Of a stretch of DNA of 29,449 nt, positions 5,914 to 23,972 are shown piece after piece. The notes beneath the pieces are model-generated. The model made no database searches. It saw only the letters and a program-made list of their open reading frames with translations, and was not told where the DNA came from. The DNA is from Candidatus Limnocylindrales bacterium (lineage in GTDB: Bacteria > Chloroflexota > Limnocylindria > Limnocylindrales > CSP1-4): contig DATGGC010000052.1 of assembly GCA_035308745.1 (NCBI GenBank), positions 1 through 29,449 on the forward strand. The letters are read 5' to 3'. The position numbers and the translations under genes are program-made. The first letter of the stretch is position 1, and every line of letters starts with the position of its first letter.

Positions 5914-6768
5914 ATGGCGGACAGCAATATCGAGATCCGGGCAGCGACGCTTGACGACGTGCCGGCGATCCGGAGTCTCCTTGCCGCCCACGGCGATGAC
6001 GGACCGGCGACCACCGTCGATATCGTTGGGCCCTATCTCGGCCACCTGATCGAGCACGCCACGGCGCTGGTCAGCGCGCGAGCCGGCGAGATCCTCGGGT
6101 TCGGGGCGGCGGTCGATACCGGCTTCAGCCGCCACCTGGCGGACCTGTTCGTCCGGCCCGAGCACCTGGGAGAGGGCATCGGTCGGCCGCTGCTGGCGGC
6201 GGTTCTGGGGGAGGCGTTCCCGAGGACCACCTTTGCCTCGGCCGATCCGCGAGCGTTGCCACTCTATGTCCGGGCGGGCATGACCCCGCTCTGGCCGTGC
6301 TTCTATCTCGAGGGCCGACCCGAGGAGCTGCCCGCGCCAGGCCCGGCGATCACGGTCGCCGCGGCGGCTCCGGCGACCCTCGCTGACCTCGAACGATCCT
6401 GGACCGGAGCGAACCGTCCGATCGACCATGCCTTCTGGGCGAGCCAGGCCGACGCCGATCCGTTCGTCGTTTCCGATGGCGGGCAGCCGGTCGCCTTTGG
6501 CTACGCTCGCGCTCGGCAGGCCAGCCCGGCCCGGGTCATCGATCGGATGGTGGTTCGACCCGGATCCGCGCCGATCGCGCCGGTCCTGGCGGCGATCCGC
6601 TTCGGCGCCCGTGGCTCGGCGATCGTGGTCACCATCCTCGGCCCACATCCGGTCCTGCCGATCCTGCTCGAGGCCCGTTTTCGGATCATCGATCGGGACC
6701 AGTTCATGGCGTCCGATCCGGCACTCGTCGATCCGACCCGGCTGCTGCCCAACCCCGGAATGCTCTAG
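5914..6768 (+). CDS. GNAT-family N-acetyltransferase (probably tandem GNAT fold)
   Basis: IEIRAATLDDVPAI start; LADLFVRPEHLGEGIGRPLL acetyl-CoA motif A. The second ATG (5914) is preferred because CACAAT lies 7 nt upstream. Confidence 0.85.
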   Translation: MADSNIEIRAATLDDVPAIRSLLAAHGDDGPATTVDIVGPYLGHLIEHATALVSARAGEILGFGAAVDTGFSRHLADLFVRPEHLGEGIGRPLLAAVLGEAFPRTTFASADPRALPLYVRAGMTPLWPCFYLEGRPEELPAPGPAITVAAAAPATLADLERSWTGANRPIDHAFWASQADADPFVVSDGGQPVAFGYARARQASPARVIDRMVVRPGSAPIAPVLAAIRFGARGSAIVVTILGPHPVLPILLEARFRIIDRDQFMASDPALVDPTRLLPNPGML

Positions 6769-8097: not shown

Positions 8098-10140
8098 CTA
8101 CTTGAGCACGATCTCCGTGGGCCAGGACTTGGCGCCCAGGCTGTCCTGCGGCCGGCCCAGCAGGTAGCCCTGGCCGTACGGGACCGCGAGGGAGCGAAGC
8201 GTCTGGAGTTCGGCCGTCGTTTCGATTCCCTCGGCGATGAGGCGAATTGAGCGCTTCCTGGCGAAGTACGACATCCCGGCAATCAGTGCCTGCCTGGCAG
8301 GATCCCCGTCGATTCCCCGAACGAGACCGATATCGAGCTTCACGAGGTCGGGTGCGAGCTCGAGGATGTGGCGGAAGCTGGCGTAGCCGGCCCCGGCATC
8401 ATCAACTGCGAGGCGGACCGTTGATCCAAGCGCTCGGAGCTCCGCCCGAAGGGTCGCGTAGTCATCGATCGCCACGTGCTCGGTGATCTCGATGACGATC
8501 GAACGGCCATTCCCTGCAAGGAGCGGCTGGAGCGATCCAGAGCCGATGAACGCCGGCGACGCGTTGAGGCTCAGGTACGCCTCGCGCGGCAGGCATCGCG
8601 CTGCGGCGTCCAGGGCCGCCCGCAGCGTCGCGGTCTCGAGCTCGATCGCGAGGCCAGCCCGGTTGGCCGCGGCGAACCGGGCGTCAGGCGGGACACGGTC
8701 GGCAAAGCGGGTGAGTGCCTCGTAGCCGGCGACGGCGCCGTTCTCGAGCTCGACGATCGGTTGGAAGAACGGCCGAAAAGCCGCCGTGTCGAGGACGGCC
8801 TGGATCACCGCCCGGCCCTCGGCGTCGCGTCGCCGGCCCTCGAGCTTCGGCGCCAGCTGGGCGCCCAGGATTGAGGCGAACGTGGCGAGGGCCGGGACGT
8901 GCTCCACGAGCGCGGCGGCGGTCAGCGGATCATGGCTCCCGATGCCCACGACCCCGACGATCCCTCGAGCGCCGCGCAGGGGCGCGTAGGCCATTGAGCG
9001 CAGCCCCGTCGAAGTCACGGCCTCGCTCCAGAACCCATCTTCCGGTTGAGGCCGCCAGTCCTCGAACCAGGGGCCGCCAGAGCCTCGCTCGAGGAGGTAA
9101 GTGAGCCGGCTCGGAGGGATCGCCCGGCCGGGCATGAAGGTCGGCCGGAGGCGCCCGGTCGCCGCCAGGATCGCCCCTTCGGTCTCATCGAGCCACGCGG
9201 CCCAGGTGGACTCGACGCCCGGGAGCTTGCCGATCACGGCGCAGGCCTCCGCCGCGGCCTCTTCCACCGAACCAGCAGGATCGATCTGCGCGAGCGCTGA
9301 TTCGATCGCTTCGCGCTCGTGGGCATCCCGGGCGCTTGAACGCTCGAGCGCGCGCTCGTGGGTGACATCGCGCTCGACCTGGACGTAGCTGGCGACCTGG
9401 CCAGCGCTGTCATGGATCGCGGAGATCACCGCCTCGATCTCGATCAGGGTGCCGTCCTTGCGCCGGTTGACGATCGTCCCGGTCCATGTCCTACCCGCGG
9501 CCGCCGACGTCCTGATGGCGACGAAGAAGGACGGCGGGTGCTCGCCGCTGTCGATCATCCCGCCGTGTCGTCCGACGATCTCTGCCGGCTGGTAGCCATA
9601 GGAGCGGGTGAAGGCGGCGTTGACGTAGGTCACGCGGCCGTCAAGGCTATGCATCGAGACGGCCTCGGCGGTCTGTTCGACTGCCGAGACGAGGCGGGTC
9701 CGTTCTTCCTCGGCGGCCCGGCGGACGCTGATGTCGCGGATCGCCGCGGTCACGAGGATTCCTTCGGCACTCTCGAGCGGGCTGAGCATGATCTCGATCG
9801 GGAACGTGCTGCCGTCCTTGCGCCGGGCGACGAGCTCCAGCCCGGAGCCGATCTGCTGGGCCAGCGCCTCGGCTGCCGACCGCAGGTCATCGGCGATCAG
9901 ACGCTCGGCGAAGCCCGCGGGGATGATGCTGGTGACCGGCTGGCCGAGCAGCTCGTCGCGTTGATACCCGAACTGCTTCTCGGCCTGGAGATTGACGAGG
10001 ACGATGTCGCCGGCGGCATCGACCACGACGATCGCGTCCGGGGCGGCCTCGAGGAGCCCGCGATATTTCGCGTCCGAACCGAAATCGAGGGCGCCCGGCC
10101 GCGGCTGGACGAGGACCGATCCGGAGGTCTGGGGTTTCAG
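8098..10140 (-). CDS. PAS-PAS(PAC)-GAF-EAL c-di-GMP phosphodiesterase, no GGDEF (start codon uncertain)
   Basis: YEALTRF, SLNASP, IEITE, AVDDAGAGYAS, VKLD and IAEGIET EAL motifs; two PAS domains with RKDG PAC motifs. The frame stays open upstream of GTG 10026 and encodes KYRGLLEAAPDAIVV. The only upstream NTG in frame is CTG at 10140. Confidence 0.88.
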   Translation of the reverse strand: MKPQTSGSVLVQPRPGALDFGSDAKYRGLLEAAPDAIVVVDAAGDIVLVNLQAEKQFGYQRDELLGQPVTSIIPAGFAERLIADDLRSAAEALAQQIGSGLELVARRKDGSTFPIEIMLSPLESAEGILVTAAIRDISVRRAAEEERTRLVSAVEQTAEAVSMHSLDGRVTYVNAAFTRSYGYQPAEIVGRHGGMIDSGEHPPSFFVAIRTSAAAGRTWTGTIVNRRKDGTLIEIEAVISAIHDSAGQVASYVQVERDVTHERALERSSARDAHEREAIESALAQIDPAGSVEEAAAEACAVIGKLPGVESTWAAWLDETEGAILAATGRLRPTFMPGRAIPPSRLTYLLERGSGGPWFEDWRPQPEDGFWSEAVTSTGLRSMAYAPLRGARGIVGVVGIGSHDPLTAAALVEHVPALATFASILGAQLAPKLEGRRRDAEGRAVIQAVLDTAAFRPFFQPIVELENGAVAGYEALTRFADRVPPDARFAAANRAGLAIELETATLRAALDAAARCLPREAYLSLNASPAFIGSGSLQPLLAGNGRSIVIEITEHVAIDDYATLRAELRALGSTVRLAVDDAGAGYASFRHILELAPDLVKLDIGLVRGIDGDPARQALIAGMSYFARKRSIRLIAEGIETTAELQTLRSLAVPYGQGYLLGRPQDSLGAKSWPTEIVLK

Positions 10141-10217
10141 AAGGTCAGGGATGGCGGGCCGCGTAGGATTCGAGTGCCACGTGGGTCCGATCTGGGCCGC
10201 GGTGCGCTCGGGTCGTG

Positions 10218-10245
10218 ACTATGGGCGCGTATCCGAGCGCGTCAA
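10218..10245 (-). promoter_or_regulatory. Putative sigma70-type promoter for the EAL gene
   Basis: TTGACG (10245-10240)-N16-CATAGT (10223-10218) on the minus strand. Confidence 0.5.
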
Positions 10246-10277
10246 GCCCTACCTGTGGTGCACGACGGGCTGTTCGC

Positions 10278-10306
10278 TTGACGCACCCACGGGCCGCGGC
10301 TAGTGT
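10278..10306 (+). promoter_or_regulatory. Sigma70-type promoter for the MFS gene
   Basis: TTGACG (10278-10283)-N17-TAGTGT (10301-10306). Confidence 0.7.
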
Positions 10307-10308
10307 CT

Positions 10309-10322
10309 TGCAATCGGTTGCA
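10309..10322. promoter_or_regulatory. LacI-family/cre-like operator
   Basis: TGCAATCGGTTGCA is a near-perfect 14-bp palindrome matching TGNAANCGNTTNCA and overlaps the predicted transcription start. Confidence 0.65.
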
Positions 10323-10344
10323 CAGGCGCCGGGTCGATCGAGCA

Positions 10345-11628
10345 ATGGACGAGCGTCGAATGGAAGGACCTGCGTCGCCGCTCGTCCCACCGGCCAATGA
10401 GGGCATCTTCGCCTCGCTGCGCCTGACCTCGTTCCGCTGGCTGTGGGCCTCGGGCCTGCTGAGCGGCTTTGGGATGTACTCGAGTGTGCTCGTGCTCAGC
10501 TGGCTGGCCCTGAGCACGCAAGGCTCAACCCTGGCCGTCGGCGTGCTGCTCGCGGCCCGCGTCCTGCCTCAACTCCTCTTCGGTCTTCAGGCTGGGGCAC
10601 TGGCGGACCGATTCTCGCGGTCGCACCTCGTGCTGGCGGCCAACGCCGGCTCGGGCGCGGTCATCGGGCTGCTCTGCCTCGCCTCGGTCGGGGGTGCCGT
10701 CGGCCTGCCGATTCTCGCCGGAGGCGCCTTCCTGGTCAGCATCTGCGATGCCATTCGAGTGACGGCGGCATCGGCGATGGCGTTTGACCTGGTCGGGCGC
10801 CGATCGGCGACGAATGCGATCGCCTTGAGCAACCTCGCAGCCCAGGTGTCCGGGATCTTTGCCGGAATCGTCGGCGGCTATGGGCTGGCTGCCCTTGGCC
10901 CGACCCCCACGTTGCTCCTGGCCGCGGTGGCCTACCTGGCCGGCGCCGTGCTCGTGCCGCGCGGCGTCCTGCCTGCCGCCGCCAAGGTCAGTGGAGCGCC
11001 CGTGTCCTTTGGCCGGGCCGCCGCCACGATCATCCGCAACCGGACGGTCGCCCTGATCGCGATCGTCGTCGCGGGGTCCGAGCTGTTCGCGTTCTCGAGC
11101 ATGACGCTCCTCCCGAGCTTCGCCCGCGACGTGTTCGGGATCGGCGCCGCCGGCCTGGGCTGGCTGTTGAGCGCACGGGCGGTCGGCGGCAGTGTCGGGC
11201 TCCTGGCGATCGCGACGACGTCGTCGCGCTGGCGAACGGTCGGCTCCTTCGCACTGCTCGCCGGAGTGTTCGGTGTCGCTCTCATCGCCTTCGCCGTCAC
11301 GCCGTTCCTGGGCGTCGCCCTGATCCTGGCTGCCGTCATCGGTGCCGCCGGTGGGGCGGTGGATGCGGTCGGGCAGGCGCAGCTGCAGCACGCTGTCTCC
11401 GCGGAGCAGCGGGGCTCGGCGATGGGCGTCTGGATGTTCTGCGTCGGGCTTGGCCTGGCCGGGCACATCGAGACCGGACTCCTCGGTGGATTCCTGGGCG
11501 CTCCGTTTGCACAGGGCCTGAACGGGTCCGTTCTGGTCGTGCTCGCTCTGATCGTCGGTGCGGCGCTGCCCGCGATCTCGTCACGCCGCCTGGGATCCGC
11601 CAACCTCGGACCCGACTCGACCGGGTGA
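10345..11628 (+). CDS. MFS transporter (12 TM, EntS/DHA3-like)
   Basis: IFASLRLTSFRWLW N-terminus, GALADRFSRSHL motif A, 12 hydrophobic segments, EQRGSAMG. Start is ATG 10345 or 10360. Confidence 0.92.
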   Translation: MDERRMEGPASPLVPPANEGIFASLRLTSFRWLWASGLLSGFGMYSSVLVLSWLALSTQGSTLAVGVLLAARVLPQLLFGLQAGALADRFSRSHLVLAANAGSGAVIGLLCLASVGGAVGLPILAGGAFLVSICDAIRVTAASAMAFDLVGRRSATNAIALSNLAAQVSGIFAGIVGGYGLAALGPTPTLLLAAVAYLAGAVLVPRGVLPAAAKVSGAPVSFGRAAATIIRNRTVALIAIVVAGSELFAFSSMTLLPSFARDVFGIGAAGLGWLLSARAVGGSVGLLAIATTSSRWRTVGSFALLAGVFGVALIAFAVTPFLGVALILAAVIGAAGGAVDAVGQAQLQHAVSAEQRGSAMGVWMFCVGLGLAGHIETGLLGGFLGAPFAQGLNGSVLVVLALIVGAALPAISSRRLGSANLGPDSTG

Positions 11629-11702: not shown

Positions 11703-12542
11703 TCAGGCCGCGGGCGGCCCTGCCTCGATGCGCCTTCGGAGCGACTCGACGGTGGCGTCTTGCCAGTCGGCCTCGATCCACCACGTGGCCCCGGCCTCGA
11801 TCCATGGCCTGACGGTGGCCGCGGCGGCTTCGCGATCACTCGCCGACGAGGTGCCCTGGGCGATGATTTCGAACGGCCGGCCGTGCTCGCCGGCGGGTCG
11901 TTCTCGCGTCGCGTAGGCCGCGATCGCCTTGATGTGCTCTGGTCGAAGGTCGACTGGGCCGCCGGTGTCGTCGTGGGCCTGGGGAATGATCCCGTCCCAC
12001 CGAATGGCCCGGTGCATCGATCGCTCCCGGGGCCACGCCGCGACAACCCAGATGGGCACCCTGGGGCGCTGGATGGGTGTGGGCAGGAACGTCATCTCTG
12101 GGAACGAGAAATGACGCCCGGCGAAGCTGAACGGCCGGCCCGACCACAGGCCCGTCAGGATCTCGAGGGATTCATCGAGAAGCTCGGCTCGGGTCCGGAC
12201 GTCGGTCGGTTCGCCGACCGGACCGAAGCCCGCATCGTCGAGCACCCCAAGGCCCACCGGTAGGACCAATCGGCCGCTCGAGAGTCGGTCGAGGGTCATC
12301 GCCTCTCGGGCCAGCTTCCACGGGCGCCGCCGCGCCGGCGGGGTGATGATCGCGCCAAATCGGACCCGGCTGGTCCGCTCGGCCACCGCGGCCATCACGA
12401 CCCAGGGGTCATACAGCTCCATCGACCCGATCGCGATGGCGTCGAAGTAGAACACGCCATCCCAGCCCGCAGACTCGGCCGCGGCCGCCAATTCGGCAAC
12501 GGTTCGTGGATCGCCGACCGTGAGGATCACTCCGTAGTGCAT
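11703..12542 (-). CDS. LLM-class (luciferase-like) flavin/F420-dependent oxidoreductase
   Basis: AAESAGWDGVFYFD, DPWVVMAAVAERTSRVRFG, RRPWKLAREAMTLDRLSSGRLVLPVGLG, PIQRPRVPIWV. Confidence 0.92.
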   Translation of the reverse strand: MHYGVILTVGDPRTVAELAAAAESAGWDGVFYFDAIAIGSMELYDPWVVMAAVAERTSRVRFGAIITPPARRRPWKLAREAMTLDRLSSGRLVLPVGLGVLDDAGFGPVGEPTDVRTRAELLDESLEILTGLWSGRPFSFAGRHFSFPEMTFLPTPIQRPRVPIWVVAAWPRERSMHRAIRWDGIIPQAHDDTGGPVDLRPEHIKAIAAYATRERPAGEHGRPFEIIAQGTSSASDREAAAATVRPWIEAGATWWIEADWQDATVESLRRRIEAGPPAA

Positions 12543-14631: not shown

Positions 14632-15624
14632 TCAGTAGCTGATCGGCTCGCGAGCGCAGGCGCCGGCGAGGCAGGGTAGCCCCAGAACGTCCTCGATCGT
14701 GCGCAGCAGACTCAGATGGTCGGCGTAGGCATTGGTTCTGAACCCGGCTGGCATCCCCGGCGCGATGATCAGGGTGGCGATGTGGCCGCCGTCATCGCCG
14801 AACGAGCCGGCATTGGTCGATCCTTCGTCGAAGGTGATGAACAGCGCCGAACCGGGGACAAACGCCGGGCTCGACGTGATGCCCGGGATGAAGGCCCGCA
14901 GGAACGCATCGCCCTGGGCGATCGTCCCGTTGTGCATGTCGTTGGTCAGGTTCGGCACGATCAGCTCGAACCGCGCGGCGGTCGGATCGAACAGGCGCAG
15001 GGGCTGGATATTCGCGCACTGGGCGGGATCACTCGAGATCGCGCTGAAGTTGATGGCGGGATTGTGGCGTCGGACGTACGTGCCCGGGCTCCCGGGTCCG
15101 TCCGCGCCGCCAGTCGCCTCGACGCCGGTGTAACAGCCGGACGGATCGTCCTGGGCGAACACCCGCCACGGTTGGGCGTTGTCGTTGAGCTGGCTGAAGA
15201 TGGTGGGACCAGCCAGGTTGTAGGGCGAGTCGGTGGTCACACCGAGCGTTGACCCGGCCACGAGGGCGACGTAGTTCAGGAGCGAATGGTGGCCGGTGGC
15301 GAAGAAGTTGGTTGCCAATCCGTACGTCGCGGCCAACCCATTGAGATACGGCGCATCGGGGCTGCCAAGGACCGTCGAGTCCTCCTTGTTCTCCATGATG
15401 ATCAGCCACGCGCGATGAACGACACCGGAGGGCAGCGGGGCGGCGCTGGCGGGCAGTGGCGATGCGGCCACCGGCAAGGATGGTCCCACCGCGATACCCG
15501 ACGGTGATCCGCGGTCGGCGGGCGCGAACGGGGGCAAGGACGCGACCAGGAGGCCCAGGATCGCCGCCAGGATGACGACACCCACGAACGGCCCCAGGCG
15601 GCGGTAGGCGGGCGGCCTATCCAT
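14632..15624 (-). CDS. Membrane-anchored extracytoplasmic phosphoesterase (acid phosphatase/phospholipase C family, SapM/AcpA-like)
   Basis: N-terminal TM and PS-rich linker; IIMEN, HSLLNYVAL (Ser nucleophile region), RRHNPA, NDMH, ITFDE, HLSLLRTIED. Confidence 0.87.
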   Translation of the reverse strand: MDRPPAYRRLGPFVGVVILAAILGLLVASLPPFAPADRGSPSGIAVGPSLPVAASPLPASAAPLPSGVVHRAWLIIMENKEDSTVLGSPDAPYLNGLAATYGLATNFFATGHHSLLNYVALVAGSTLGVTTDSPYNLAGPTIFSQLNDNAQPWRVFAQDDPSGCYTGVEATGGADGPGSPGTYVRRHNPAINFSAISSDPAQCANIQPLRLFDPTAARFELIVPNLTNDMHNGTIAQGDAFLRAFIPGITSSPAFVPGSALFITFDEGSTNAGSFGDDGGHIATLIIAPGMPAGFRTNAYADHLSLLRTIEDVLGLPCLAGACAREPISY

Positions 15625-15666: not shown

Positions 15667-15698
15667 AGGCTACCGGCGGAACCTGAGCGCCACATGAA
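15667..15698 (-). promoter_or_regulatory. OmpR-family direct-repeat box plus -10 for the phosphoesterase gene
   Basis: Minus strand: TTCATGT-ggcg-CTCAGGT-tccgccgg-TAGCCT. Confidence 0.72.
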
Positions 15699-15711
15699 CG
15701 GACCTGCCCGG

Positions 15712-15743
15712 CTCAGGTAACCCTCAGGTTCAGCGCCCAGTCT
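15712..15743 (+). promoter_or_regulatory. OmpR-family direct-repeat box plus -10 for the GT87-Kelch-YVTN operon
   Basis: CTCAGGT-aacc-CTCAGGT-tcagcgcc-CAGTCT. Confidence 0.75.
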
Positions 15744-15751
15744 CGGCGTGG

Positions 15752-17164
15752 ATGGCAGCAAGCGGATCTACGTGGGGGCCGCCCCGCACGGCCGCGATAC
15801 GAGGCCTGACCTGGCTCCTGCCTGTCGTCGGCCTGGTCGTCGCGAGCGTAGGGGCGACAGGCCGTCCATTGGGCATGCCGGCGGCGCTGGCGCCTGTCGC
15901 AATTGCCGGGCCGGTCGTCCTTGCCGGAGCAGCCTGGCTGCTCGGCCTCAGGCTGGGACACGCAAGGTGGCTGCCTCTCGCCGTGCTTGGCATTGCCGTG
16001 CTCGGCATCATCGCGGCCCTGATCCTGCCAGGGCTCCTGGCGGACGTCACGCGGACGCGCGCACGACTCGAGCTGGATAGCGCGGCGGCCGGGGTCGTCG
16101 CCGTGGGCATCGTGATCGGCCACGTCCGCGGGAGGCGGCCCAGCTCGCTCGATCTTCTCGTCGGGATCGCCCTCGTTGCGATGGTGATCACGGACCTCGC
16201 GATCGTCCATTCGGTCTATCAACGGGACCTCAACCTGTACCTCGATGCCGGGCACGACTTCCTCGCTGGTCGGCCGGTCTACGCCCAGGTTCCACTGACG
16301 GTCGCGCCGGCCGACCTCACCCAACTGCCCTTCGTCTATCCGCCGGTCACGCTGCCGCTGTTCGCCGCCCTGGCTGCGTTGCCGCAGCCCCTGGTCTCCG
16401 TTTTCTGGCTCGTCCTGCAACTGCTCGCGGCCTTCGCGGCGATCCGGCTCGTCGGGGTGCCCTCGCGCTGGGCGGGCGTGCTGCTCCTGTGGCCGCCCTT
16501 TGTGCAGGGTGTCTGGGTCGGCAATGTGGCGATCTGGATGGTTCTGATCTTTGCCCTCGTTCCATTTCGTCGATTCGTCGTGGGGCTGCCCGCGATGTTC
16601 AAGTTCCAGGCGGGCGTCGCCGGCCTGTGGCTGATCAGGGAGCGGGATTGGAACGCGCTCGGTGGGGCCATCGGGCTCGTGATTGCACTTGTGCTGATCA
16701 CCCTTCCGCTCGTCGGGATCGGGGCCTGGTCCAACTGGTATCACGGGTTGCTCGCGTTTCAACGGACGACCGTCAATATTCCGGGGATCCGCGGGCTGGC
16801 ACTCTCGCGCTGGATCGGTGAGCTTCTCGCCCTGACGCTCGCGGTCGCGATCGCCGGGATCAGCCTGTGGGCCGGACGCCGGGCCAGCCTCGCCAACCTT
16901 GGATTGGCTGGCGTCGCGGTGTCACCAACGCTGTACCTCCATGGCCTGACCCTCGCGCTGCCAGGATTCCTGCAGCTTCGGGCTGCGGTGTTCTGGTTGC
17001 TCCTCATCGGCACGTTCAGCACGGGTCTGAAGGGCTGGCTCTGGCTGATCCTCCTGGTGGCGGCGCTCGCGCCGGTCATTCCGCAATTGCGGCACCAGCC
17101 GTCCGAAGCCGAATCGGATTGGCAGCCACTCGGCCGGTCGGACGGCCCGTGGCCGGCTTCGTGA
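15752..17164 (+). CDS. GT-C glycosyltransferase family 87 (DUF2029)-like
   Basis: RDLNLYLDAGHDFLAGRPVY..PFVYPP loop motif, GNV..W, K-F-Q motif, multiple TM helices, and an extra N-terminal 4-TM region. Confidence 0.85.
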   Translation: MAASGSTWGPPRTAAIRGLTWLLPVVGLVVASVGATGRPLGMPAALAPVAIAGPVVLAGAAWLLGLRLGHARWLPLAVLGIAVLGIIAALILPGLLADVTRTRARLELDSAAAGVVAVGIVIGHVRGRRPSSLDLLVGIALVAMVITDLAIVHSVYQRDLNLYLDAGHDFLAGRPVYAQVPLTVAPADLTQLPFVYPPVTLPLFAALAALPQPLVSVFWLVLQLLAAFAAIRLVGVPSRWAGVLLLWPPFVQGVWVGNVAIWMVLIFALVPFRRFVVGLPAMFKFQAGVAGLWLIRERDWNALGGAIGLVIALVLITLPLVGIGAWSNWYHGLLAFQRTTVNIPGIRGLALSRWIGELLALTLAVAIAGISLWAGRRASLANLGLAGVAVSPTLYLHGLTLALPGFLQLRAAVFWLLLIGTFSTGLKGWLWLILLVAALAPVIPQLRHQPSEAESDWQPLGRSDGPWPAS

Positions 17165-18207
17165 GAGCCTCATCTGGACGACGCAGCGGGTGGCTCGGCG
17201 TCGTCCTGTCGGCAGCCTTCGTGCTCGCGTCGTGCGCCAGCCAGCCGATCTCGCCGGCGCCCTCGATCGCCGGCCCGCTCGCCTCGTCGGCTCGTCCAAG
17301 TGCCGAGCCGGCTGTAGCCGAGAGCCCGTCTGCGAGCCTTGGCACGCCGCCGGTGCCCGCCGCGCGAGGTCTGCGCATCGAGCGATCGGCCATCCGGCTG
17401 CCGGCCGGCCGCAGCCGATCGGTAGCCCTGCTCCTCGGATCGGAGATCCTCGTATGCGGCGGGCTCACGGCGGCCGGCACGACCGATTCGATCCTCCGGA
17501 TCAACCTGCCAGCCGGCGCGATCGAGGCCCACGGCACGTTGCCGGCACCTGTCCACGATGCCGGCGGCGCCGTCCTCAACGGGGTCGGGTTCATCTTCGG
17601 CGGTGGAAGATTCGGACCGGGCGCAACCGTCCAGCGCGTCGGAGCCAACGGGAATGCGGCCTCCAGCGGGCGCCTGCCGGCCGATCGGGCCGACCTCGTC
17701 GCCGTCGCCATTCCCGGCAGCCTGGCACTGGTCGGTGGAGGAACCACCACCTTCTACGACCGGCGCGTGCTGGCGACCAGTGACGGCCTGCACTTCACCC
17801 AGATCGCGACGTTGCTCGTCGGGGTCCGCTATCCGGCCGTGACGTTCGACGGCGGCCGCATCTACGTGATCGGTGGCAGCACGGCGTCCGGCGACACGAC
17901 CGCCATCCAGGCGATCGATCCCGCGACCGGCCGGGTCCAATTGATCGGACGCCTGCCTCGGGCCCGGTCCCATGCTGCCGCGTTCGTCGTCGGCGGAGCC
18001 CTGCTGATCGCCGGTGGTCGGGTCGCTGGCCAAGCCCAGGACAGCGTCCTCCGGCTCGATCCTGCGACTGGGACCGTCCGCCAGGTGGGCCGCCTGCCGT
18101 ACCCGGTCTCGGACCTGGCCGTGGCCGTGGTCGGGACGACGGCCTACCTGATGGGCGGCGAGTCGGCGGCGCCGCTCGCGTCGGTCGTCACGGTCTCCAT
18201 GACCTGA
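17161..18207 (+). CDS. Kelch-repeat beta-propeller lipoprotein
   Basis: GTG overlaps the GT87 stop (GTGA); MRASSGRRSGWLGVVLSAAFVLAS-C lipobox; six repeats with GG (LVCGG, FIFGGG, ALVGGG, IYVIGG, LIAGG, AYLMGG). Confidence 0.85.
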   Translation: MRASSGRRSGWLGVVLSAAFVLASCASQPISPAPSIAGPLASSARPSAEPAVAESPSASLGTPPVPAARGLRIERSAIRLPAGRSRSVALLLGSEILVCGGLTAAGTTDSILRINLPAGAIEAHGTLPAPVHDAGGAVLNGVGFIFGGGRFGPGATVQRVGANGNAASSGRLPADRADLVAVAIPGSLALVGGGTTTFYDRRVLATSDGLHFTQIATLLVGVRYPAVTFDGGRIYVIGGSTASGDTTAIQAIDPATGRVQLIGRLPRARSHAAAFVVGGALLIAGGRVAGQAQDSVLRLDPATGTVRQVGRLPYPVSDLAVAVVGTTAYLMGGESAAPLASVVTVSMT

Positions 18208-18217
18208 TGGATCGCCG

Positions 18218-19525
18218 GTGACAGACGCCCCGCGGCCGCGCCAGAATCAGCGCTCACAGGCTCATCGCCGACGGGCTCAACGGATTCCGCCGCGCTGGCT
18301 GGCCGCGGTCGGCCTCATTGGCCTGGCGGCGCTGATCACGGTCGGGTCGATGCTGGGCGGCCGATCCGGCCTGCCGGCCAGCTCAGGCAACATTGCGGAG
18401 GCGATCTCTCCGGCCGGCTCGGCCCCGACGCTTGCACCGATGACTCCGCCAAGCCTGGGGCCAATCAGCAGTGTCGGACCGACGGCAAGTCCGTCGCTCG
18501 CCTCGAGCGGACCCACGGGCAGCTCGTCGAATATCTATGCGGCTGCCGGGGTGGGCATGTTCTCCCCGACGGTTCGAGCCTTTCCACCACGGGTGTACGT
18601 GCCCGATGAGCTGACCGGGACGGTGATCGTCATCGATCCGCTCACGTTCAAGATCCTGTTCCGCTACCCGGTCGGGGCCTCGCCTGAGCATGTCACGCCC
18701 GACTGGGACCTCCAGCGCCTGTACGTGGAGGCCGCCTTCGGCAACCGGCTGACCGTCATCGATCCAGGGACCGGTCGGGTCATCGGCTACCACTCGGTCC
18801 CAGGCCCGTACAACCTGTACTTCACGCCCAACGGCAAGTTCGCGATCGTGGTCCGCGATGCCGCGCAGGCCTACGGCGGCCAGCACCAGCTCTACTTCTA
18901 CGACCGACGGACCTGGCACCTGATCAAGGCGGTTCAGATCCCCTGGGCGGGCGCCGACCACCTCGACTTTTCGGCCGACGGGAGCTACTTCCTGCTCAGC
19001 ACGGAGTACGCGGGCTGGGTGGCCAAGGTGAGCGTCGCGAAGATGCAGGTCGTTGGCGCCCTGTACGTGGGCGGGCACCCGATCGATGTCCGGCTGGCGC
19101 CCGACGGCAAGACGTTCTTCGTGGCCGACTATGTGAGTGGCGGAGTCTCGGTCGTCGACCCGGTAGCCATGCGTGTCGTCGCCTTCATCAGGACCGGACG
19201 GGGCGCCCACGGCCTGTCGCTCAGCCGGGACGACAGGTCGCTCTACGTGACCAATCGGCTGGCCGGCTCACTGTCCGTGATCGACCTTCGGACCCGGCGG
19301 GTGGTGCACACCTGGTCGATCGGCGGAACGCCCGACATGATCGCCGTCTCGCCCGACGGCAGCCAGCTGTGGATCTCGAACCGCTACAGCGGCAGCGTCA
19401 CGGTCATGAACGCCCACACCGGGCACGTGATCATCGTCATCCACGTGGGCGGCCACCCCCACGGCCTGGCCTACTTCCCCGAGCCCGGCCGCTACAGCCT
19501 GGGCCACAACGGCATCTATCGCTGA
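18218..19525 (+). CDS. Membrane-anchored YVTN/YncE-type beta-propeller protein
   Basis: TM helix and S/P-rich linker; repeats VYVPD..VIVIDP, YFTPNGK, FSADGSY, LAPDGKTFFV, LSRDDRSLYVTNR, VSPDGSQLW; C-terminus PEPGRYSLGHNGIYR. Confidence 0.88.
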   Translation: MTDAPRPRQNQRSQAHRRRAQRIPPRWLAAVGLIGLAALITVGSMLGGRSGLPASSGNIAEAISPAGSAPTLAPMTPPSLGPISSVGPTASPSLASSGPTGSSSNIYAAAGVGMFSPTVRAFPPRVYVPDELTGTVIVIDPLTFKILFRYPVGASPEHVTPDWDLQRLYVEAAFGNRLTVIDPGTGRVIGYHSVPGPYNLYFTPNGKFAIVVRDAAQAYGGQHQLYFYDRRTWHLIKAVQIPWAGADHLDFSADGSYFLLSTEYAGWVAKVSVAKMQVVGALYVGGHPIDVRLAPDGKTFFVADYVSGGVSVVDPVAMRVVAFIRTGRGAHGLSLSRDDRSLYVTNRLAGSLSVIDLRTRRVVHTWSIGGTPDMIAVSPDGSQLWISNRYSGSVTVMNAHTGHVIIVIHVGGHPHGLAYFPEPGRYSLGHNGIYR

Positions 19526-19549
19526 GGCAGAACGGTGGACTGGCCGGGG

Positions 19550-19581
19550 CTCAGGTTGGCTTCATGTCCGCTGCCCACGCT
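19550..19581 (+). promoter_or_regulatory. OmpR-family direct-repeat box plus -10 upstream of the sORF-RR-HK-GT operon (probable autoregulation)
   Basis: CTCAGGT-tggc-TTCATGT-ccgctgcc-CACGCT. Confidence 0.72.
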
Positions 19582-19665
19582 GGCCATGGATGGCTCCTGG
19601 TTTCGGAGACCGCATCCCGCGGGAGCCATCCGCTTGACCACCATGCGGCGAGCTCGGAGGGCAGC

Positions 19666-19785
19666 GTGTCAGCGATCGTCTTCCTGGGGATCAACCTCGC
19701 AGGCAAGCAATTGGTCGTCGTCGTCGTGGTGATGGCCGTCGTCATCATTGCCGGCTTCTGGCTTCTGCTGCGCCGTCGCCGATAG
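19666..19785 (+). CDS. 39-aa single-pass membrane peptide
   Basis: GGAGGG SD at 19656-19661, then GTG 19666. MSAIVFLGINLAGKQLVVVVVVMAVVIIAGFWLLLRRRR has a TM helix and a poly-Arg tail. Confidence 0.65.
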   Translation: MSAIVFLGINLAGKQLVVVVVVMAVVIIAGFWLLLRRRR

Positions 19786-19872
19786 CGGATTGACGTCGAT
19801 GATGCACCTGACCGGTCGGACAGGGTGGTCATGTCGGCCTGCCCCGGGCGCCTCTCCTGACGCGGATTCACG

Positions 19873-20622
19873 ATGGGATTAGGATCGCGTGCGGCGGATC
19901 CGGTCGCTGAAGGAGCCGGGCCGGGGAGGACCCAGCTGCGCATCTTGGTCGTCGAGGACGAGTCTGCGATCGCCGATGGCCTCAAGGTTGTCTTGAGCTC
20001 AGATGGGCATGCGGTCGACGTGGTTGGCGACGGACTCGACGCGCTGCGCTGGGCGGAGACCTACCCGTATGACCTGGTCATCCTCGATGTCGTGCTGCCG
20101 AGCCTGGACGGCTTCGAGGTGTGCCGGCGGCTTCGGGCTGCCCGATTTGTTGCACCGATCCTGATGCTCACGGCCCGGGACAGCGTCGAGGACCGGGTGA
20201 ACGGGCTCGACCAGGGAGCCGACGACTACCTCGCCAAGCCTTTCGCCGTTGCCGAGCTGCGGGCCCGGCTCCGGGCACTGCGCCGACGAGTCGGGACCGA
20301 GCGGGCAGGGTCGCTGACGGTCGGGGACCTGACCCTCGATCCGCCGACCATGCGGGTGACCCGGGCAGGCCGGGAGATCCGGCTCACGACCCGAGAGTTC
20401 GCGTTGCTCGAGCTGCTGGCCCGACACCCCGGCCAGCTCTTCACCCAGGAGCGCCTGCTGGATGCCCTCTGGAACGCCGACTTCGTGGCCGAGTCGAACG
20501 TCGTGGAGGCCTTTATCCGGAGCCTTCGGCGCAAGGTGGACGACGGTCGGCGCAACGGGCTCATCGAGACCGTCCGCGGCGCTGGATACCGCTTGCGTGT
20601 CGTTCCCGAGGCAGCGGCCTGA
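19873..20622 (+). CDS. OmpR/PhoB-family response regulator (MprA/CssR-like)
   Basis: ILVVEDE, VILDVVLP, ILMLTARDSVEDRVNGLDQGADDYLAKPF; winged helix LTTREFALLELL..SNVVEAFIRSLRRKV..IETVRGAGY. Confidence 0.96.
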   Translation: MGLGSRAADPVAEGAGPGRTQLRILVVEDESAIADGLKVVLSSDGHAVDVVGDGLDALRWAETYPYDLVILDVVLPSLDGFEVCRRLRAARFVAPILMLTARDSVEDRVNGLDQGADDYLAKPFAVAELRARLRALRRRVGTERAGSLTVGDLTLDPPTMRVTRAGREIRLTTREFALLELLARHPGQLFTQERLLDALWNADFVAESNVVEAFIRSLRRKVDDGRRNGLIETVRGAGYRLRVVPEAAA

Positions 20623-21584
20623 TGTTCCAGCGGGCTCGTCGTCGTCTGACGGTCCTCTACGTCGTCCTCTTCGCCCTGGTATTCGCGGTCTTCAGCGTCG
20701 TCTTCTATGTCGCCTTTCGGACCGTCCTGGGTCCGGCATTCGACATCGCCCCCGACCTCTCGTCCAGCCAGGCCGCCGGGCTTGCCTACCAGGTGGCACT
20801 CGAGCGAGTTGGGATCGCGCTGATCGTCGCCAACCTGCTGACGATTGGGCTGGTCGCCGTTGCCGCGTGGGTCCTCGCCAACCGAACCCTGCGGCCGATC
20901 CGTGATGCGCACGCCCGCCAGCGGCGGTTCGTGGCCGACGCCTCGCACGAGATGCGGACCCCGCTTGCGGCGATCCGGGCGACGGCTGAAAGCAGTCTCG
21001 AGCCGGCCGTCCGGGTCGACGACCTCAGGGCCGACATGGTCCGGATCATCGAAGCGGCCGAGCGCCTGACGAAGATCACCAACGACCTGCTCATCCTGGC
21101 CAGCGCCGACGACCGCTTGATCGAGCCGGCAAAGGAGCCGTTTGACCTGTCCGTCGCGGTGGCTGAGGCGATCAGCACATTCCGGGTCGCCCATCCGGGC
21201 ACCGACCAGATCCGGGTGAACCTGGTGCCCGACCTGCGCGTGCGGGGCGAGCCCGAAGGATGCGATCGAATCGTGACCAACCTGCTCGACAACGCTGTTC
21301 GCTACGGTGGTCCGGCAGCGGCGGTCCAGGTCACGATGTCGGCGACGGATCACGAGGGCGTCGTCGAGGTGGCCGATCACGGGCCGGGGATCGATTCACA
21401 GGACCTCGATCGCATCTTCGAACCCTTCTATCGGGTCCGCGCCGATACGGGCGGTCCCTCCGGCAACGGCCTGGGCCTCGCGATCGCGCGCAGCCTGGCG
21501 GAGCGTTCCGGAGGCCACCTGAGCGTGACGAGCCAGGCCGGATCCGGTGCGACGTTCCGCCTGGCCCTGCCGCGCGTCAGCTAA
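20622..21584 (+). CDS. Membrane sensor histidine kinase (HisKA + HATPase, short extracytoplasmic loop)
   Basis: ATG overlaps the RR stop (TGATG); 2 TM helices; FVADASHEMRTPL, NLLDNAVRYG, DHGPGI, IFEPFYRV, GLGLAIA. Confidence 0.95.
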   Translation: MFQRARRRLTVLYVVLFALVFAVFSVVFYVAFRTVLGPAFDIAPDLSSSQAAGLAYQVALERVGIALIVANLLTIGLVAVAAWVLANRTLRPIRDAHARQRRFVADASHEMRTPLAAIRATAESSLEPAVRVDDLRADMVRIIEAAERLTKITNDLLILASADDRLIEPAKEPFDLSVAVAEAISTFRVAHPGTDQIRVNLVPDLRVRGEPEGCDRIVTNLLDNAVRYGGPAAAVQVTMSATDHEGVVEVADHGPGIDSQDLDRIFEPFYRVRADTGGPSGNGLGLAIARSLAERSGGHLSVTSQAGSGATFRLALPRVS

Positions 21585-21590
21585 CGAAGG

Positions 21591-23075
21591 ATGAGGCGGA
21601 GCCGATGGGCCGCATCGGCAGCCGGTCTCTTGCCCGGGGTCAGTGCGGCCGTCGCGATCGGGTTGCTCCTCGTCGTGTTCGTGCGGGTCGATCCGCCAAG
21701 CGGCGTCACGGCCAGCGCCAGCCCATTCACCGATGAGGCCTGGCACGTCCTCAATGCCCGCAACCTCGTGCTCTTCGGCCAGTTCTCGACCGATGACTAC
21801 AACCTCCACTTGCTCACGGCGCCGTTCAGCGTCGCGGTCGCCGCGGTCTTCAGCGTGCTCGGGGTTGGAATGGCCCAGGCTCGGCTGGTCGCCATCCTGG
21901 CGACGGGCCTGACGGTCGGACTGCTGGCGATCGGCCTGCGCTCGATCGTCGGCCGCTGGCCGGCGCTCGTTGCCGGACTTGCCTTCGGCACGTCGGCACT
22001 GGTCCTCTACTACGGCCGCCTGGCATTCCTCGAGCCGCTCGAAGGGCTGTTCCTGGTGACCGCGCTGGTCCTGGTGGTTCGCGACGGTGAGCATCACCGA
22101 TTCGTGCTCGGCTTGGTTGCCGGGATCGCGCTGGCCCTGGCGATCGGGACGAAGGCCAGCGCGGCCATCCCCGCCGCGGGGATCGTTGCCGGACTGGCGG
22201 TGGCACATGTCAGGGAGCGGCGAGATTGGCGCCTGGTCACCGGGTGCATCAGCGGCCTGGGCCTGTCCGCCGCCGGCTGGCTGGTCGCCGTGGGCTTGCC
22301 CAACATGCACGCCCTGCCCGCCGTGCTCTCGACGCTGCCGCCCGAACCACTGCCCGGCTCGGTTGATGAGCTCCTGAAGCGCGTTGCCGGGTACGTCGTC
22401 CACAGCGACGGGGCATGGCCCATGGCCGGGCCGTTGATCGTCGGGACGCTGATCGCTGGTGCAATCGGAGTCGCGGCGCGGTCGCGCCTGAGTGCGCCGC
22501 AGCGAACGCTGCTGCTGGTGGCGACCGGCTGGGCCGTCGCCGGCTTCGCGATCCTGTTCCTCGTCCCCTACCGGCCGAACCGCTACGTCGTCCCGCTGCT
22601 CCCGGCGCTGGCCGGTATCGTCGGAGTCGGCCTCGCCCTACTGGCTGGCTTCGAGGTCCGCCGGCGCGTTCAGCAGCTCAGCCTTGTCGCCGTCGGGGTG
22701 CTCGCCGTGGCTGGCCTCACGGCACCAGGGCTGGTGCTGGACGCTCATTGGATGGCAACGACCCCGAGCACGCTGCCGGGCATCCAGGCGCGGGTTGCCG
22801 GATTGCTGCCTCCGGGAGCTACGGTTCAGGGTGCGTATGCGCCTCTCCTGGCGATGACGGCGCGGGTCACCGCCATCGTGGTCTGGCCCGGCGGCAAGGT
22901 GAACGCGGGCGACCTCTATGCCAGCCGTGGGGTTCGGTGGGTCGTGGGGACACCCGGGCGAGCCGCCGATGTTCCGAGCTGGGTCAGCCTCCACCCGGGC
23001 GCCTGGGCCGTCCGGCGAACGGTCGACTGCGTGCCCTGGGGTGGCGACCAGGTCTGCCTCTGGGCCGTGCCCTGA
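21591..23075 (+). CDS. GT-C glycosyltransferase, ArnT/GT39/GT83-like
   Basis: FTDEAWH acidic first-loop motif; about 12 TM helices; YYGRLAFLEPL; GTKASA; PNRYVVPLLP. Confidence 0.8.
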   Translation: MRRSRWAASAAGLLPGVSAAVAIGLLLVVFVRVDPPSGVTASASPFTDEAWHVLNARNLVLFGQFSTDDYNLHLLTAPFSVAVAAVFSVLGVGMAQARLVAILATGLTVGLLAIGLRSIVGRWPALVAGLAFGTSALVLYYGRLAFLEPLEGLFLVTALVLVVRDGEHHRFVLGLVAGIALALAIGTKASAAIPAAGIVAGLAVAHVRERRDWRLVTGCISGLGLSAAGWLVAVGLPNMHALPAVLSTLPPEPLPGSVDELLKRVAGYVVHSDGAWPMAGPLIVGTLIAGAIGVAARSRLSAPQRTLLLVATGWAVAGFAILFLVPYRPNRYVVPLLPALAGIVGVGLALLAGFEVRRRVQQLSLVAVGVLAVAGLTAPGLVLDAHWMATTPSTLPGIQARVAGLLPPGATVQGAYAPLLAMTARVTAIVVWPGGKVNAGDLYASRGVRWVVGTPGRAADVPSWVSLHPGAWAVRRTVDCVPWGGDQVCLWAVP

Positions 23076-23088
23076 GCCGGTCGCCCGC

Positions 23089-23871
23089 TCATCGGGCCCG
23101 GTCCGGTTCGGTGCGACCGATGCTTTGGGACACGACCAGGGCCACGATCAGGAGGGTGAGCGCCAAGCTCACCGATCCCGTTCCCAGTCCCAGGCCGCTC
23201 AGCGTCCTGGGTCGTCCGATCCAGTCGGCGAACGAGGCGCCGAAGGGCCGGGTCAGGATGTAGGCCGACCAGAATGCGACGACGGCATTCAAGCCCGCCA
23301 GCCGATACCCGAGGGCCGGGACGATGAACAGGCCTGCGAACAGGATCCCCGAAGCCAGGTAGCCCAGCCGGAGGGTGCTGGCGGTCATGTCACCCGTCGC
23401 GGTTCCAAGGGCGAACGTGGCCAGGACCGTGGCCCAGTAGAAGAGCTCGCGTCGGCGGCTGTCGATGGCATGGATCGAGAGGGTGCCTTCGCTGGACCGC
23501 CAGACACCAAAGACGACGGCGAGCACGAGGGCGAAGAACACGGTCGAGACGAGATACGGGACGCCCAGCTCGATGTGCAGGACATCGGCGGCCATCGTCC
23601 CGAAGATCGCGACCATCGCGACCACCAGCCAGTAGATCCCAGGGATGAACCGGTTGGCTCGGAGCTGCACGAGCAGCGCAAGGCCGAGGGCGACTGCCGT
23701 GACCGGAACGACCACCAGCGGGTTGAATGTTCGGACCAGGTAGTCGGAGGTCACCTCGCCCATCGCGGTCGTGAGGATCTTGATGACCCAGAAGCTGAGC
23801 GTGATTTCGGGGACTTTGCGCCTGGTCAGATCGGTTGGCCTGCGTCGGGCCAGGTCCATCGTCCGGGTCAA
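23089..23871 (-). CDS. DUF347/COG4705 membrane protein (internal repeat)
   Basis: KVPEITLSFWVIKILTTAMGEVTSDYL; YWLVVAMVAIFGTMAAD; RRRELFYWATVLATFALGTATGD; FWSAYILTRPFGASFAD. Start is TTG 23871 or ATG 23859. Confidence 0.9.
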   Translation of the reverse strand: MTRTMDLARRRPTDLTRRKVPEITLSFWVIKILTTAMGEVTSDYLVRTFNPLVVVPVTAVALGLALLVQLRANRFIPGIYWLVVAMVAIFGTMAADVLHIELGVPYLVSTVFFALVLAVVFGVWRSSEGTLSIHAIDSRRRELFYWATVLATFALGTATGDMTASTLRLGYLASGILFAGLFIVPALGYRLAGLNAVVAFWSAYILTRPFGASFADWIGRPRTLSGLGLGTGSVSLALTLLIVALVVSQSIGRTEPDRAR

Positions 23872-23940
23872 GGAACCTTGAGCCCTCGTGTGCTTCGGCT
23901 GGATGGGCCCACCTGCGCGGGGGCCGAGAGGCGGTTCTTG

Positions 23941-23972
23941 ACCGTAGCGCCTGAACCTGAGAGCCCGCTGAG
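23941..23972 (-). promoter_or_regulatory. OmpR-family direct-repeat box plus -10 for the DUF347 gene
   Basis: Minus strand: CTCAGCG-ggct-CTCAGGT-tcaggcgc-TACGGT. Confidence 0.72.

What the first reader, a model, noticed from the sequence alone, without database searches (positions are those of the whole stretch)
15667..23972. Four promoters share one direct-repeat architecture, defining a local OmpR/MprA-like regulon
Seen: the four non-coding gaps that could start transcription units each carry an 11-bp-period heptamer repeat exactly 8 nt upstream of a -10 hexamer. Phosphoesterase (15698-15667, minus): TTCATGT-N4-CTCAGGT-N8-TAGCCT. GT87 operon (15712-15743): CTCAGGT-N4-CTCAGGT-N8-CAGTCT. sORF/RR/HK operon (19550-19581): CTCAGGT-N4-TTCATGT-N8-CACGCT. 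DUF347 (23972-23941, minus): CTCAGCG-N4-CTCAGGT-N8-TACGGT. None has a good TTGACA -35. Established: OmpR/PhoB regulators bind tandem 11-bp-period repeats over the -35 region, and as I recall the M. tuberculosis MprA box has TCTCAG repeats (worth verifying). Inference: the 19873 regulator activates all four units, including its own.
Basis: partly seen in the sequence, partly recalled or inferred. Interest (0 to 1): 0.85.

Follow-up and report, generated by a model that had tools for sequence, protein, structure and literature searches.

The report
Shared regulator boxes at four promoters
Four promoters around a two-component signalling gene pair in a soil actinobacterial genome carry the same 18-base tandem repeat, which is conserved next to the same gene pair in many related genomes, so it is almost certainly that regulator's binding site: a sound but ordinary example of a small self-regulated cell-envelope regulon.

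Summary
The four sites read exactly as reported: heptamer, 4 nt, heptamer, 8 nt, then a -10-like hexamer. In the window's own 2.8-Mb, ~90%-complete genome, YTCAKGT-N4-YTCAKGT occurs three times. A version loosened to admit the fourth site occurs four times. All lie in this window, and they are the four best genome-wide matrix scores.

The box is conserved. HK orthologues occur in 37 of 251 sampled genomes of the same family. The 30 loci scanned hold 38 box hits in 115 kb, where about one is expected. Hits sit upstream of the regulator or exactly at the kinase stop, facing a conserved lipoprotein or a phosphoesterase. Remote boxes in relatives precede GT87, Kelch/YncE, DUF347, phosphoesterase, MurT, PAP2 and methyltransferase genes. 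An A ten bases after the proximal heptamer, not used to pick sites, is present in 42 of 46 sites.

Best reading: the phosphorylated OmpR/PhoB-family regulator (19873-20622) binds as a tandem dimer over -38 to -21 and activates four units, including its own operon. This is the 7-4-7 pho-box geometry. Binding and transcription starts are untested. The MprA-box resemblance could not be checked, and the pair is not an MprAB orthologue by context or kinase architecture. It is a new member of a known kind, of modest interest.

The parts
15681..15698 (-). Box 1 (TTCATGT-GGCG-CTCAGGT), facing the phosphoesterase gene
   Evidence: Read. Strict pattern match. Matrix score 24.1. A comparable box facing the phosphoesterase homologue occurs in G006 and in G255, G075, G181, G128 and G245.
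15667..15672 (-). -10-like hexamer TAGCCT, 8 nt after box 1
   Evidence: The fixed N8 spacing and the conserved A at hexamer position 2 are seen in 42 of 46 family sites.
15712..15729 (+). Box 2 (CTCAGGT-AACC-CTCAGGT), facing the GT87-Kelch-YncE unit
   Evidence: Score 24.6, the best in the genome. Boxes precede GT87 homologues in G010 and G013 and a Kelch-YncE pair in G005.
15738..15743 (+). -10-like hexamer CAGTCT, 8 nt after box 2 and 8 nt before the GT87 ATG at 15752
   Evidence: The same hexamer follows a box in G010.
19550..19567 (+). Box 3 (CTCAGGT-TGGC-TTCATGT), facing the sORF-RR-HK-PMT_2 operon (autoregulation)
   Evidence: Score 24.1. Boxes lie upstream of the orthologous RR in G006, G005, G017 and many family loci.
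19576..19581 (+). -10-like hexamer CACGCT, 8 nt after box 3
23955..23972 (-). Box 4 (CTCAGCG-GGCT-CTCAGGT), facing DUF347; the weakest of the four
   Evidence: Two mismatches to the strict pattern. Score 18.5, still fourth in the genome. A strict box heads an SRPBCC-like ORF plus DUF347 unit in G011.
23941..23946 (-). -10-like hexamer TACGGT, 8 nt after box 4
14632..15624 (-). Phosphoesterase-family gene (PF04185), target of box 1
   Evidence: Pfam E 6e-18.
15752..19525 (+). GT87 glycosyltransferase, Kelch propeller and YncE-like propeller genes; presumed operon under box 2
   Evidence: Pfam hits. Same strand with short or overlapping junctions.
19666..19785 (+). 39-codon membrane-peptide ORF between box 3 and the regulator
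   Evidence: GGAGG lies 6 nt before the GTG. The ORF and its leader are conserved in G006.
19873..20622 (+). OmpR/PhoB-family response regulator, the proposed box-binding protein
   Evidence: Response_reg plus Trans_reg_C. Acidic pocket E28/D29, D72, T100 and K122 are present. The recognition helix is nearly invariant in 27 orthologues and different in 12 own-genome paralogues.
20622..21584 (+). 320-aa histidine kinase with two membrane helices, a ~32-aa outer loop and no HAMP; H109
   Evidence: HisKA plus HATPase_c only. Sequence read. Orthologue alignment.
21591..23075 (+). PMT_2 (GT-C) glycosyltransferase, 6 nt after the kinase; last gene of the autoregulated operon
   Evidence: Pfam. Same order in G006.
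23089..23871 (-). DUF347 membrane protein, target of box 4
   Evidence: Pfam E 3e-46, four repeats.

Best explanation
The four 18-bp elements are binding sites for the response regulator encoded at 19873-20622. The adjacent small membrane kinase senses an unknown, probably cell-envelope, signal and phosphorylates the regulator at Asp72. A head-to-tail regulator dimer then occupies the two heptamers, spaced 11 bp apart, at about -38 to -21. There it stands in for the missing -35 element and recruits RNA polymerase to a weak nAnnnT -10 placed 8 nt downstream.

This switches on four units. They are the phosphoesterase gene, the GT87-Kelch-YncE operon, the regulator's own sORF-RR-HK-PMT_2 operon (positive feedback), and DUF347.

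Shown here: the sequence, its rarity, its conservation, and its linkage to the orthologous RR/HK pair and to homologous target genes. Inferred: which protein binds, that binding activates, where transcription starts, and what the signal is.
For: The sites are exact and unique to this locus in the genome. No canonical promoters lie in the gaps.

HK orthologues occur in 37 of 251 family genomes. The 30 loci scanned carry 38 box hits in 115 kb, where the own-genome rate predicts about 1. The hits sit in stereotyped places: upstream of the RR, and at the HK stop facing a lipoprotein or a phosphoesterase.

Family-wide, the looser pattern is found 1.7 times per HK-positive genome, and about half of those hits lie within 2 kb of the pair. 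It is found 0.42 times per HK-negative genome, and the reversed control pattern 0.2 times per genome. Five near-complete genomes hold only 1-3 copies each, and in four of them a copy sits at the pair.

Remote boxes precede homologues of the window's targets: GT87, Kelch/YncE, phosphoesterase and DUF347.

A column not used to select sites is A in 42 of 46 sites, 10 nt after the proximal heptamer. This fixes the geometry relative to the -10.

The regulator has intact phospho-acceptor residues. Its recognition helix is conserved among orthologues only.

The 7-4-7 tandem geometry is that of PhoB (PMC4971064) and of M. tuberculosis PhoP (PMC4832192).
Against: There is no binding, expression or transcription-start data. 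No RNA run holds this DNA.

The genome encodes about 16 OmpR-family regulators, so assigning the box to this one rests on adjacency and co-occurrence.

The scoring matrix was built from the four sites themselves. Related genomes are not independent samples.

Some HK-negative genomes carry good boxes. At least one of them (G125) turned out to have the pair after all.

Box 4 is degenerate. Many family boxes in front of the lipoprotein gene are followed by GATAAC- or GATACC-type hexamers that lack the final T of a standard -10.

A site covering -38 to -21 could also serve repression.
Confidence: 0.8

Rival explanations
1. The same regulator binds the boxes but represses. By covering the -35 region it blocks RNA polymerase, and the signal relieves or imposes this block.
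For: The box spans about -38 to -21, where bound proteins can occlude polymerase.
Against: None of the four gaps has a recognisable -35 or a full canonical promoter that could fire unaided. The fixed distance between box and -10 across unrelated genes is the signature of activator-dependent promoters such as pho-box promoters.
Confidence: 0.12
2. The boxes are bound by a different regulator, such as a paralogous OmpR-family protein, and the local RR/HK pair is merely one of its targets.
For: The genome has about 16 OmpR-family regulators. The closest paralogue (49% identity) has a weakly similar repeat, CTCAGGT-TGTT-CTCAGAA, 66 nt before its own start. In G017 a paralogous RR also has a TTCACGT-N4-TTCATGC repeat upstream.
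Against: The box co-occurs with the orthologous pair and usually lies within 2 kb of it. The paralogues' recognition helices differ. The paralogue-associated repeats score far lower.
Confidence: 0.05
3. The repeats are chance or leftover duplicated DNA with no regulatory role.
For: All four sites lie within 8.3 kb, so local duplication of promoter segments is conceivable.
Against: Flanks and spacers differ while only the heptamers and the -10 adenine are kept. Composition predicts about 0.05 strict matches in this genome, and 3 are seen. The box is conserved across genera in front of different genes.
Confidence: 0.02

Closest known systems
E. coli PhoB and the pho box
   Same: Both have two 7-bp direct repeats separated by 4 bp, an 11-bp period bound by a tandem dimer. 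Both lie close upstream of the -10 and replace the -35 (PMC4971064). The regulator belongs to the same OmpR/PhoB family.
   Different: The half-site here is TTCAKGT rather than CTGTCAT. The PhoB equivalog model scores 205 bits against a cut-off of 296. The kinase has no PAS domain. PhoU lies on another contig with no OmpR-type regulator on it. The regulon is small and local rather than global.
M. tuberculosis PhoP (PDB 5ed4), direct repeat TCACAGC-N4-TCACAGC
   Same: Both use strict 7-4-7 geometry with a tandem dimer (PMC4832192). Both half-sites contain TCA in their 5' part. PhoP is one of the best solved-structure sequence matches to this regulator (E 5e-50).
   Different: The 3' half of the half-site differs. 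Identity to PhoP is no higher than to MtrA or PrrA, so orthology is not indicated. The target genes are different.
M. tuberculosis MprAB
   Same: By general knowledge, both are actinobacterial OmpR-family pairs that regulate themselves and are linked to envelope functions. The recalled MprA box has an 11-bp period (my recollection, unverified).
   Different: No PepD/HtrA protease gene is adjacent. The kinase is 320 aa with a ~32-aa loop and no HAMP. By recollection, not checked here, MprB is a much larger kinase with a large outer domain. The box sequence of MprA could not be retrieved.
Two-component pairs with a dedicated lipoprotein gene (MtrAB-LpqB, CseABC) and PmrAB/BasRS, which control ArnT-type lipid-modifying enzymes (comparisons from general knowledge)
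   Same: In most family members a lipoprotein gene directly follows the kinase. The regulon contains a PMT_2/ArnT-like GT-C enzyme and, in relatives, lipid-phosphate phosphatases.
   Different: The lipoprotein has no Pfam family and was not found in this genome. The MtrA, CseB and PmrA equivalog models all score far below their cut-offs.

Membership tests
OmpR/PhoB-family response regulator | N-terminal receiver domain with phospho-acceptor Asp, plus C-terminal winged-helix Trans_reg_C domain | tested here: met
   PF00072 at 3.6e-29 and PF00486 at 1.6e-25. E28/D29, D72, T100 and K122 are present.
OmpR/PhoB-family response regulator | Binds tandem direct repeats with a period of about one helical turn | tested here: inconclusive
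   A conserved 7-4-7 direct repeat is linked to the gene in many genomes.
Pho-box-type (class II, -35-replacing) activator promoter | Box abuts the -10 at a fixed distance, and no -35 is present | tested here: met
   N8 spacing at all four sites. The A at hexamer position 2 is kept in 42 of 46 sites. No canonical promoter in the gaps. Transcription starts are not mapped.
PhoB/PhoP phosphate regulator (orthologue) | Scores above the PhoB equivalog cut-off; linked to phoU/pst; PAS-containing kinase | tested here: not met
   204.9 bits against a cut-off of 296.2. PhoU is on contig C114, which holds no OmpR-type regulator. The kinase has only HisKA and HATPase_c.
MprAB (M. tuberculosis) orthologue | mprA-mprB-pepD gene order | tested here: not met
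   The kinase is followed by a PMT_2 glycosyltransferase here and by a lipoprotein or phosphoesterase in relatives. No protease gene is present.
MprAB (M. tuberculosis) orthologue | Kinase with large extracytoplasmic domain and HAMP linker (a feature recalled from memory) | tested here: not met
   The kinase is 320 aa. TM2 ends near residue 86 and the phospho-His is at 109, which is too short for a HAMP. The loop is ~32 aa.
MprAB (M. tuberculosis) orthologue | Box sequence matches the published MprA box | not testable with these tools
   The defining papers (PMC538824, PMC1428128) are not held. Text searches did not yield the sequence.
Intramembrane-sensing histidine kinase (architecture class) | Two membrane helices with a very short outer loop and no cytoplasmic sensor domain | tested here: inconclusive
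   The layout was read from the sequence and the orthologue consensus. The ~32-aa loop is at the upper edge of the class as I recall it. No topology predictor was run.

The most novel reading that the evidence does not exclude
The RR/HK pair, its box and the kinase-adjacent lipoprotein may form a previously undescribed, family-wide envelope circuit in uncultured soil actinobacteria. A minimal membrane-embedded kinase would monitor the polyprenyl-phosphate / lipid II supply line. It would adjust GT-C glycosyltransferases, lipid phosphatases (PF04185, PAP2), the MurT peptidoglycan amidation ligase and DUF347. That would give DUF347 its first regulatory and functional context.
Probability: 0.3. 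Interest if true: 0.55.

Novelty: new member of a known kind. Interest (0 to 1): 0.33.

Why it matters
The box links genes of unknown role to one signal in an uncultured actinobacterial family known only from metagenomes. Those genes are DUF347, two beta-propellers, a 39-residue membrane peptide and an unclassified lipoprotein. The same signal also controls recognisable envelope enzymes: GT87 and PMT_2 glycosyltransferases, phosphoesterases, and in relatives MurT and PAP2. The result is a short, testable target list and a defined 18-bp operator for in-vitro work. It does not reveal a new regulatory principle.

Tried and rejected
Retrieving the published MprA box failed. The two defining papers are not held, and five text searches gave no sequence. 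The C. glutamicum MprA motif (TKTTAAGAAM, PMC12113857) is unrelated to this box.

The search for related loci with the kinase alignment used generic kinase peptides and returned almost only distant paralogues, so it did not help.

I tested whether the closest paralogue on contig C109, which has a weak CTCAG repeat upstream, is the MprAB-PepD locus. It is RR-HK-ferric reductase-FMN_bind, and no equivalog model passes.

Lower-scoring own-genome candidates were judged unconvincing. These are C122:4627 before a GNAT and a GDSL lipase, and C191:14327, a triple CTCAGGC repeat before a GNAT/FemAB-like gene.

No RNA sequencing run holds this DNA, so transcription starts could not be examined. Rfam found nothing in the window.

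I considered explaining the half-site from recognition-helix residues by analogy with PhoP. I dropped it because the same N-V-V-E/D helix start is common across the family.

No complex prediction was run, because jobs with DNA receive no verdict.
Full report
**What is in the sequence.** Each has a heptamer of the form YTCAKGT, four bases, a second heptamer, eight bases, and a hexamer with A at position 2 and T at position 6.
- Boxes 1 and 2 lie back to back, 13 bp apart, in the 127-bp gap between the divergent phosphoesterase gene (14632-15624, minus) and the GT87 gene (15752 onward, plus).
- Box 3 starts 25 bp after the stop of the YncE-like gene. It heads a 39-codon membrane-peptide ORF, the response regulator (19873-20622), the histidine kinase (20622-21584) and a PMT_2 glycosyltransferase (21591-23075).
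- Box 4 lies in the 137-bp gap upstream of the DUF347 gene (23089-23871, minus).

Gene identities come from Pfam. The gene map comes from third-position GC content. A simple consensus scan finds no canonical -35/-10 promoter in any of these gaps. The upstream PMT_2 gene at 13093 has its own gap without a box.

**More than chance.** The window holds four matches at up to two mismatches, against 0.79 expected from shuffles. The window's genome is a soil-metagenome assembly of 2.82 Mb in 419 contigs, about 90% complete, with 71% G+C.
- The strict pattern occurs three times in that genome, and a version loosened to admit box 4 occurs four times. All are these sites. Base composition predicts about 0.05 strict matches.
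- A half-site matrix ranks the four sites first to fourth genome-wide.
- When the spacing of the two half-sites is varied from 7 to 24 bases, only spacing 11 places more than one pair in this contig: four pairs, against single pairs at 17 and 22.
- The matrix was built from the sites themselves, so its ranking is partly circular. The plain pattern counts are not.

**Conservation with the regulator and kinase.** Clear orthologues of the regulator (63-84% identity) stand out from roughly 50%-identical paralogues in related genomes.
- A wider search with the kinase found orthologues in 37 of 251 sampled genomes of the same family, in 15 of 49 genera. One of the 37, G111, is an unpublished genome. 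It is included in these tallies and in the scan, but was left out of the site compilation.
- The 30 loci scanned total about 115 kb. They carry 38 matrix hits at a threshold that yields roughly 24 hits in the whole own genome, so about one would be expected.
- The hits fall in two stereotyped places. One is upstream of the regulator. The other begins at or just after the kinase stop codon and faces the next gene.
- That next gene is usually a 210-230-residue lipoprotein with no Pfam family. It is present in at least 14 loci and was not found in the window's genome. In one genus it is a phosphoesterase homologue.
- Five near-complete genomes each hold only one to three copies of a looser pattern, and in four of them a copy sits at the pair.
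- Across the 251 genomes the looser pattern occurs 63 times in the 37 kinase-positive genomes, about half within 2 kb of the pair. It occurs 90 times in the 214 others. The reversed control pattern occurs about 50 times in all (tallies made by hand from the table).
- At least one 'negative' genome, G125, does carry the pair, so the contrast is understated.
- Related genomes are not independent, so I give no P value.

**Conservation with the target genes.** Boxes far from the pair in relatives precede homologues of the window's targets.
- GT87 in G010 and G013, and Kelch-YncE in G005.
- Phosphoesterase in G245, and a propeller gene followed by a phosphoesterase in G093.
- An SRPBCC-like ORF (my reading of its N-terminus; no family search was run) followed by DUF347 in G011.
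- Other recurrent downstream genes are a MurT-type ligase (G010 twice, G012), a SAM-dependent methyltransferase (G203; G116, where it sits between the box and the regulator), a PAP2 phosphatase divergent from the regulator (G125), and BamB-like propellers.
- The common theme is the cell envelope and its lipid-linked intermediates.

**Promoter geometry.** I compiled 46 non-redundant sites scoring 15 or more. The consensus is TTCAGGT-GRGA-TTCAKGT. The window and its nearest relative G006 prefer C at the first heptamer position. Columns outside the matrix are unbiased by the selection. Among them one stands out: A in 42 of 46 sites, ten bases after the last T of the proximal heptamer. Four bases further on there is T or C (21 and 22 sites). 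If that A is the -11 adenine of the -10 element, the heptamers occupy -38 to -32 and -27 to -21. This covers the place of a -35 element that is not there. Many lipoprotein-facing boxes are followed by GATAAC or GATACC, which lack the final T of a standard -10. I cannot explain this.

**The proteins.** The regulator has receiver and winged-helix domains and all phospho-transfer residues. No curated equivalog model reaches its cut-off; the best is RppA at 233 bits against a cut-off of 250. The best solved-structure matches are T. maritima DrrD and M. tuberculosis PhoP, MtrA and PrrA, all about equally distant.
- The recognition helix reads ESN(V/I)VEVYIRSLRRK in 27 orthologues and differs in the 12 own-genome paralogues compared.
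- The window's copy alone has A-F in place of V-Y in that helix.
- The kinase is minimal. It has two membrane helices, a loop of about 32 residues, no room for a HAMP linker, and the phospho-His at residue 109.

**Mechanism and comparison with known systems.** The layout is that of PhoB at the pho box: two 7-bp repeats with a 4-bp spacer, close to the -10 and substituting for the -35 (PMC4971064). It is also that of M. tuberculosis PhoP, which binds 7-4-7 direct repeats as a compact tandem dimer (PMC4832192).
- I therefore propose that the phosphorylated regulator binds as a tandem dimer and activates the four units, with positive feedback on its own operon.
- This is inference from anatomy and co-occurrence.
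- Repression by the same protein is the main rival.
- Binding by a paralogue is unlikely, given the linkage data and the divergent helices.

**Is it MprA-like?** The recalled resemblance to the MprA box could not be tested, because the defining papers are not in the library. By gene order and kinase architecture the pair is not an MprAB orthologue. It is also not the phosphate regulator: it scores below the PhoB cut-off, and PhoU lies elsewhere without an adjacent OmpR-type gene.

**Verdict.** The kind of system is well known, so this is a new member of a known kind. Its main value is a concrete operator and a short target list for an uncultured lineage, including DUF347. The scan's other first-reader notes on this window were seen. 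They cover the envelope gene cluster, the micropeptide and DUF347, and they are consistent with what I found.

Noticed in passing
window 19588-19631 (+): The leader between the -10 of box 3 and the small ORF folds into a 12-13-bp stem (GGAUGGCUCC...GGGAGCCAUCC). Its energy is -26.8 kcal/mol, z -3.6 against shuffles. Both arms are conserved in G006. No Rfam family matches.
   Followed up: partly
window 19666-19785 (+); L031 about 10335-10455 (-): The 39-codon membrane-peptide ORF, with a GGAGG ribosome site, is conserved in G006 at the same place. In several other orthologous loci the box lies too close to the regulator gene to leave room for it.
   Followed up: partly
L140 2545-3177, L142, L136-L138, L144, L146-L150, L153, L168: A conserved 210-230-residue lipoprotein with no Pfam family follows the kinase under its own box in most orthologous loci. 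Atlas look-alikes include PsbP-like and Lpp-LpqN-like clusters. It was not found in the window's ~90%-complete genome.
   Followed up: partly
window 20500-20520 (RR residues ~214-215): The window's regulator has Ala-Phe in the recognition helix where all 27 compared orthologues have Val-Tyr. The window and G006 also prefer CTCAGGT over the family's TTCAGGT, but G006 keeps Val-Tyr, so the two changes do not simply go together.
   Followed up: partly
G000 contig C109:829-846 (L126): The closest paralogous regulator (49% identity) has a weaker repeat of the same period, CTCAGGT-TGTT-CTCAGAA, 66 nt before its start. Its operon continues with a 482-aa kinase, a ferric-reductase-like membrane protein and an FMN_bind protein.
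   Followed up: partly
L119 (G018:C309) about 6600-6730: An array of 11-bp units, TTCAGGTCGAG, gives several overlapping box matches in a genome without a detected orthologue of the pair. Its context was not examined.
   Followed up: no
L033 (G011:C7) 11762-11779 (-): A box-like site just after the YncE homologue points into the 3' end of a convergent DUF347 gene. A strict box on the other strand heads that DUF347 unit. This looks like a rearrangement that separated the regulator operon from its original promoter.
   Followed up: no
L038 (G010:C125) 9769-10339: The orthologous regulator gene in G010 aligns in two overlapping pieces in different frames. This suggests a frameshift or an assembly error.
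   Followed up: no
window 15738-15754 (+): The GT87 ATG at 15752 lies only 8 nt after the proposed -10, so this transcript may be leaderless or nearly so. Several phosphoesterase homologues in relatives have ATG 6 nt after their hexamer.
   Followed up: no
G000 contigs C162, C396, C329: The genome has further phosphoesterase paralogues (61-64% identity) and a GT87 paralogue (41%). None has a box scoring 13 or more nearby. Only the copies beside the RR/HK pair appear to be under this control.
   Followed up: partly
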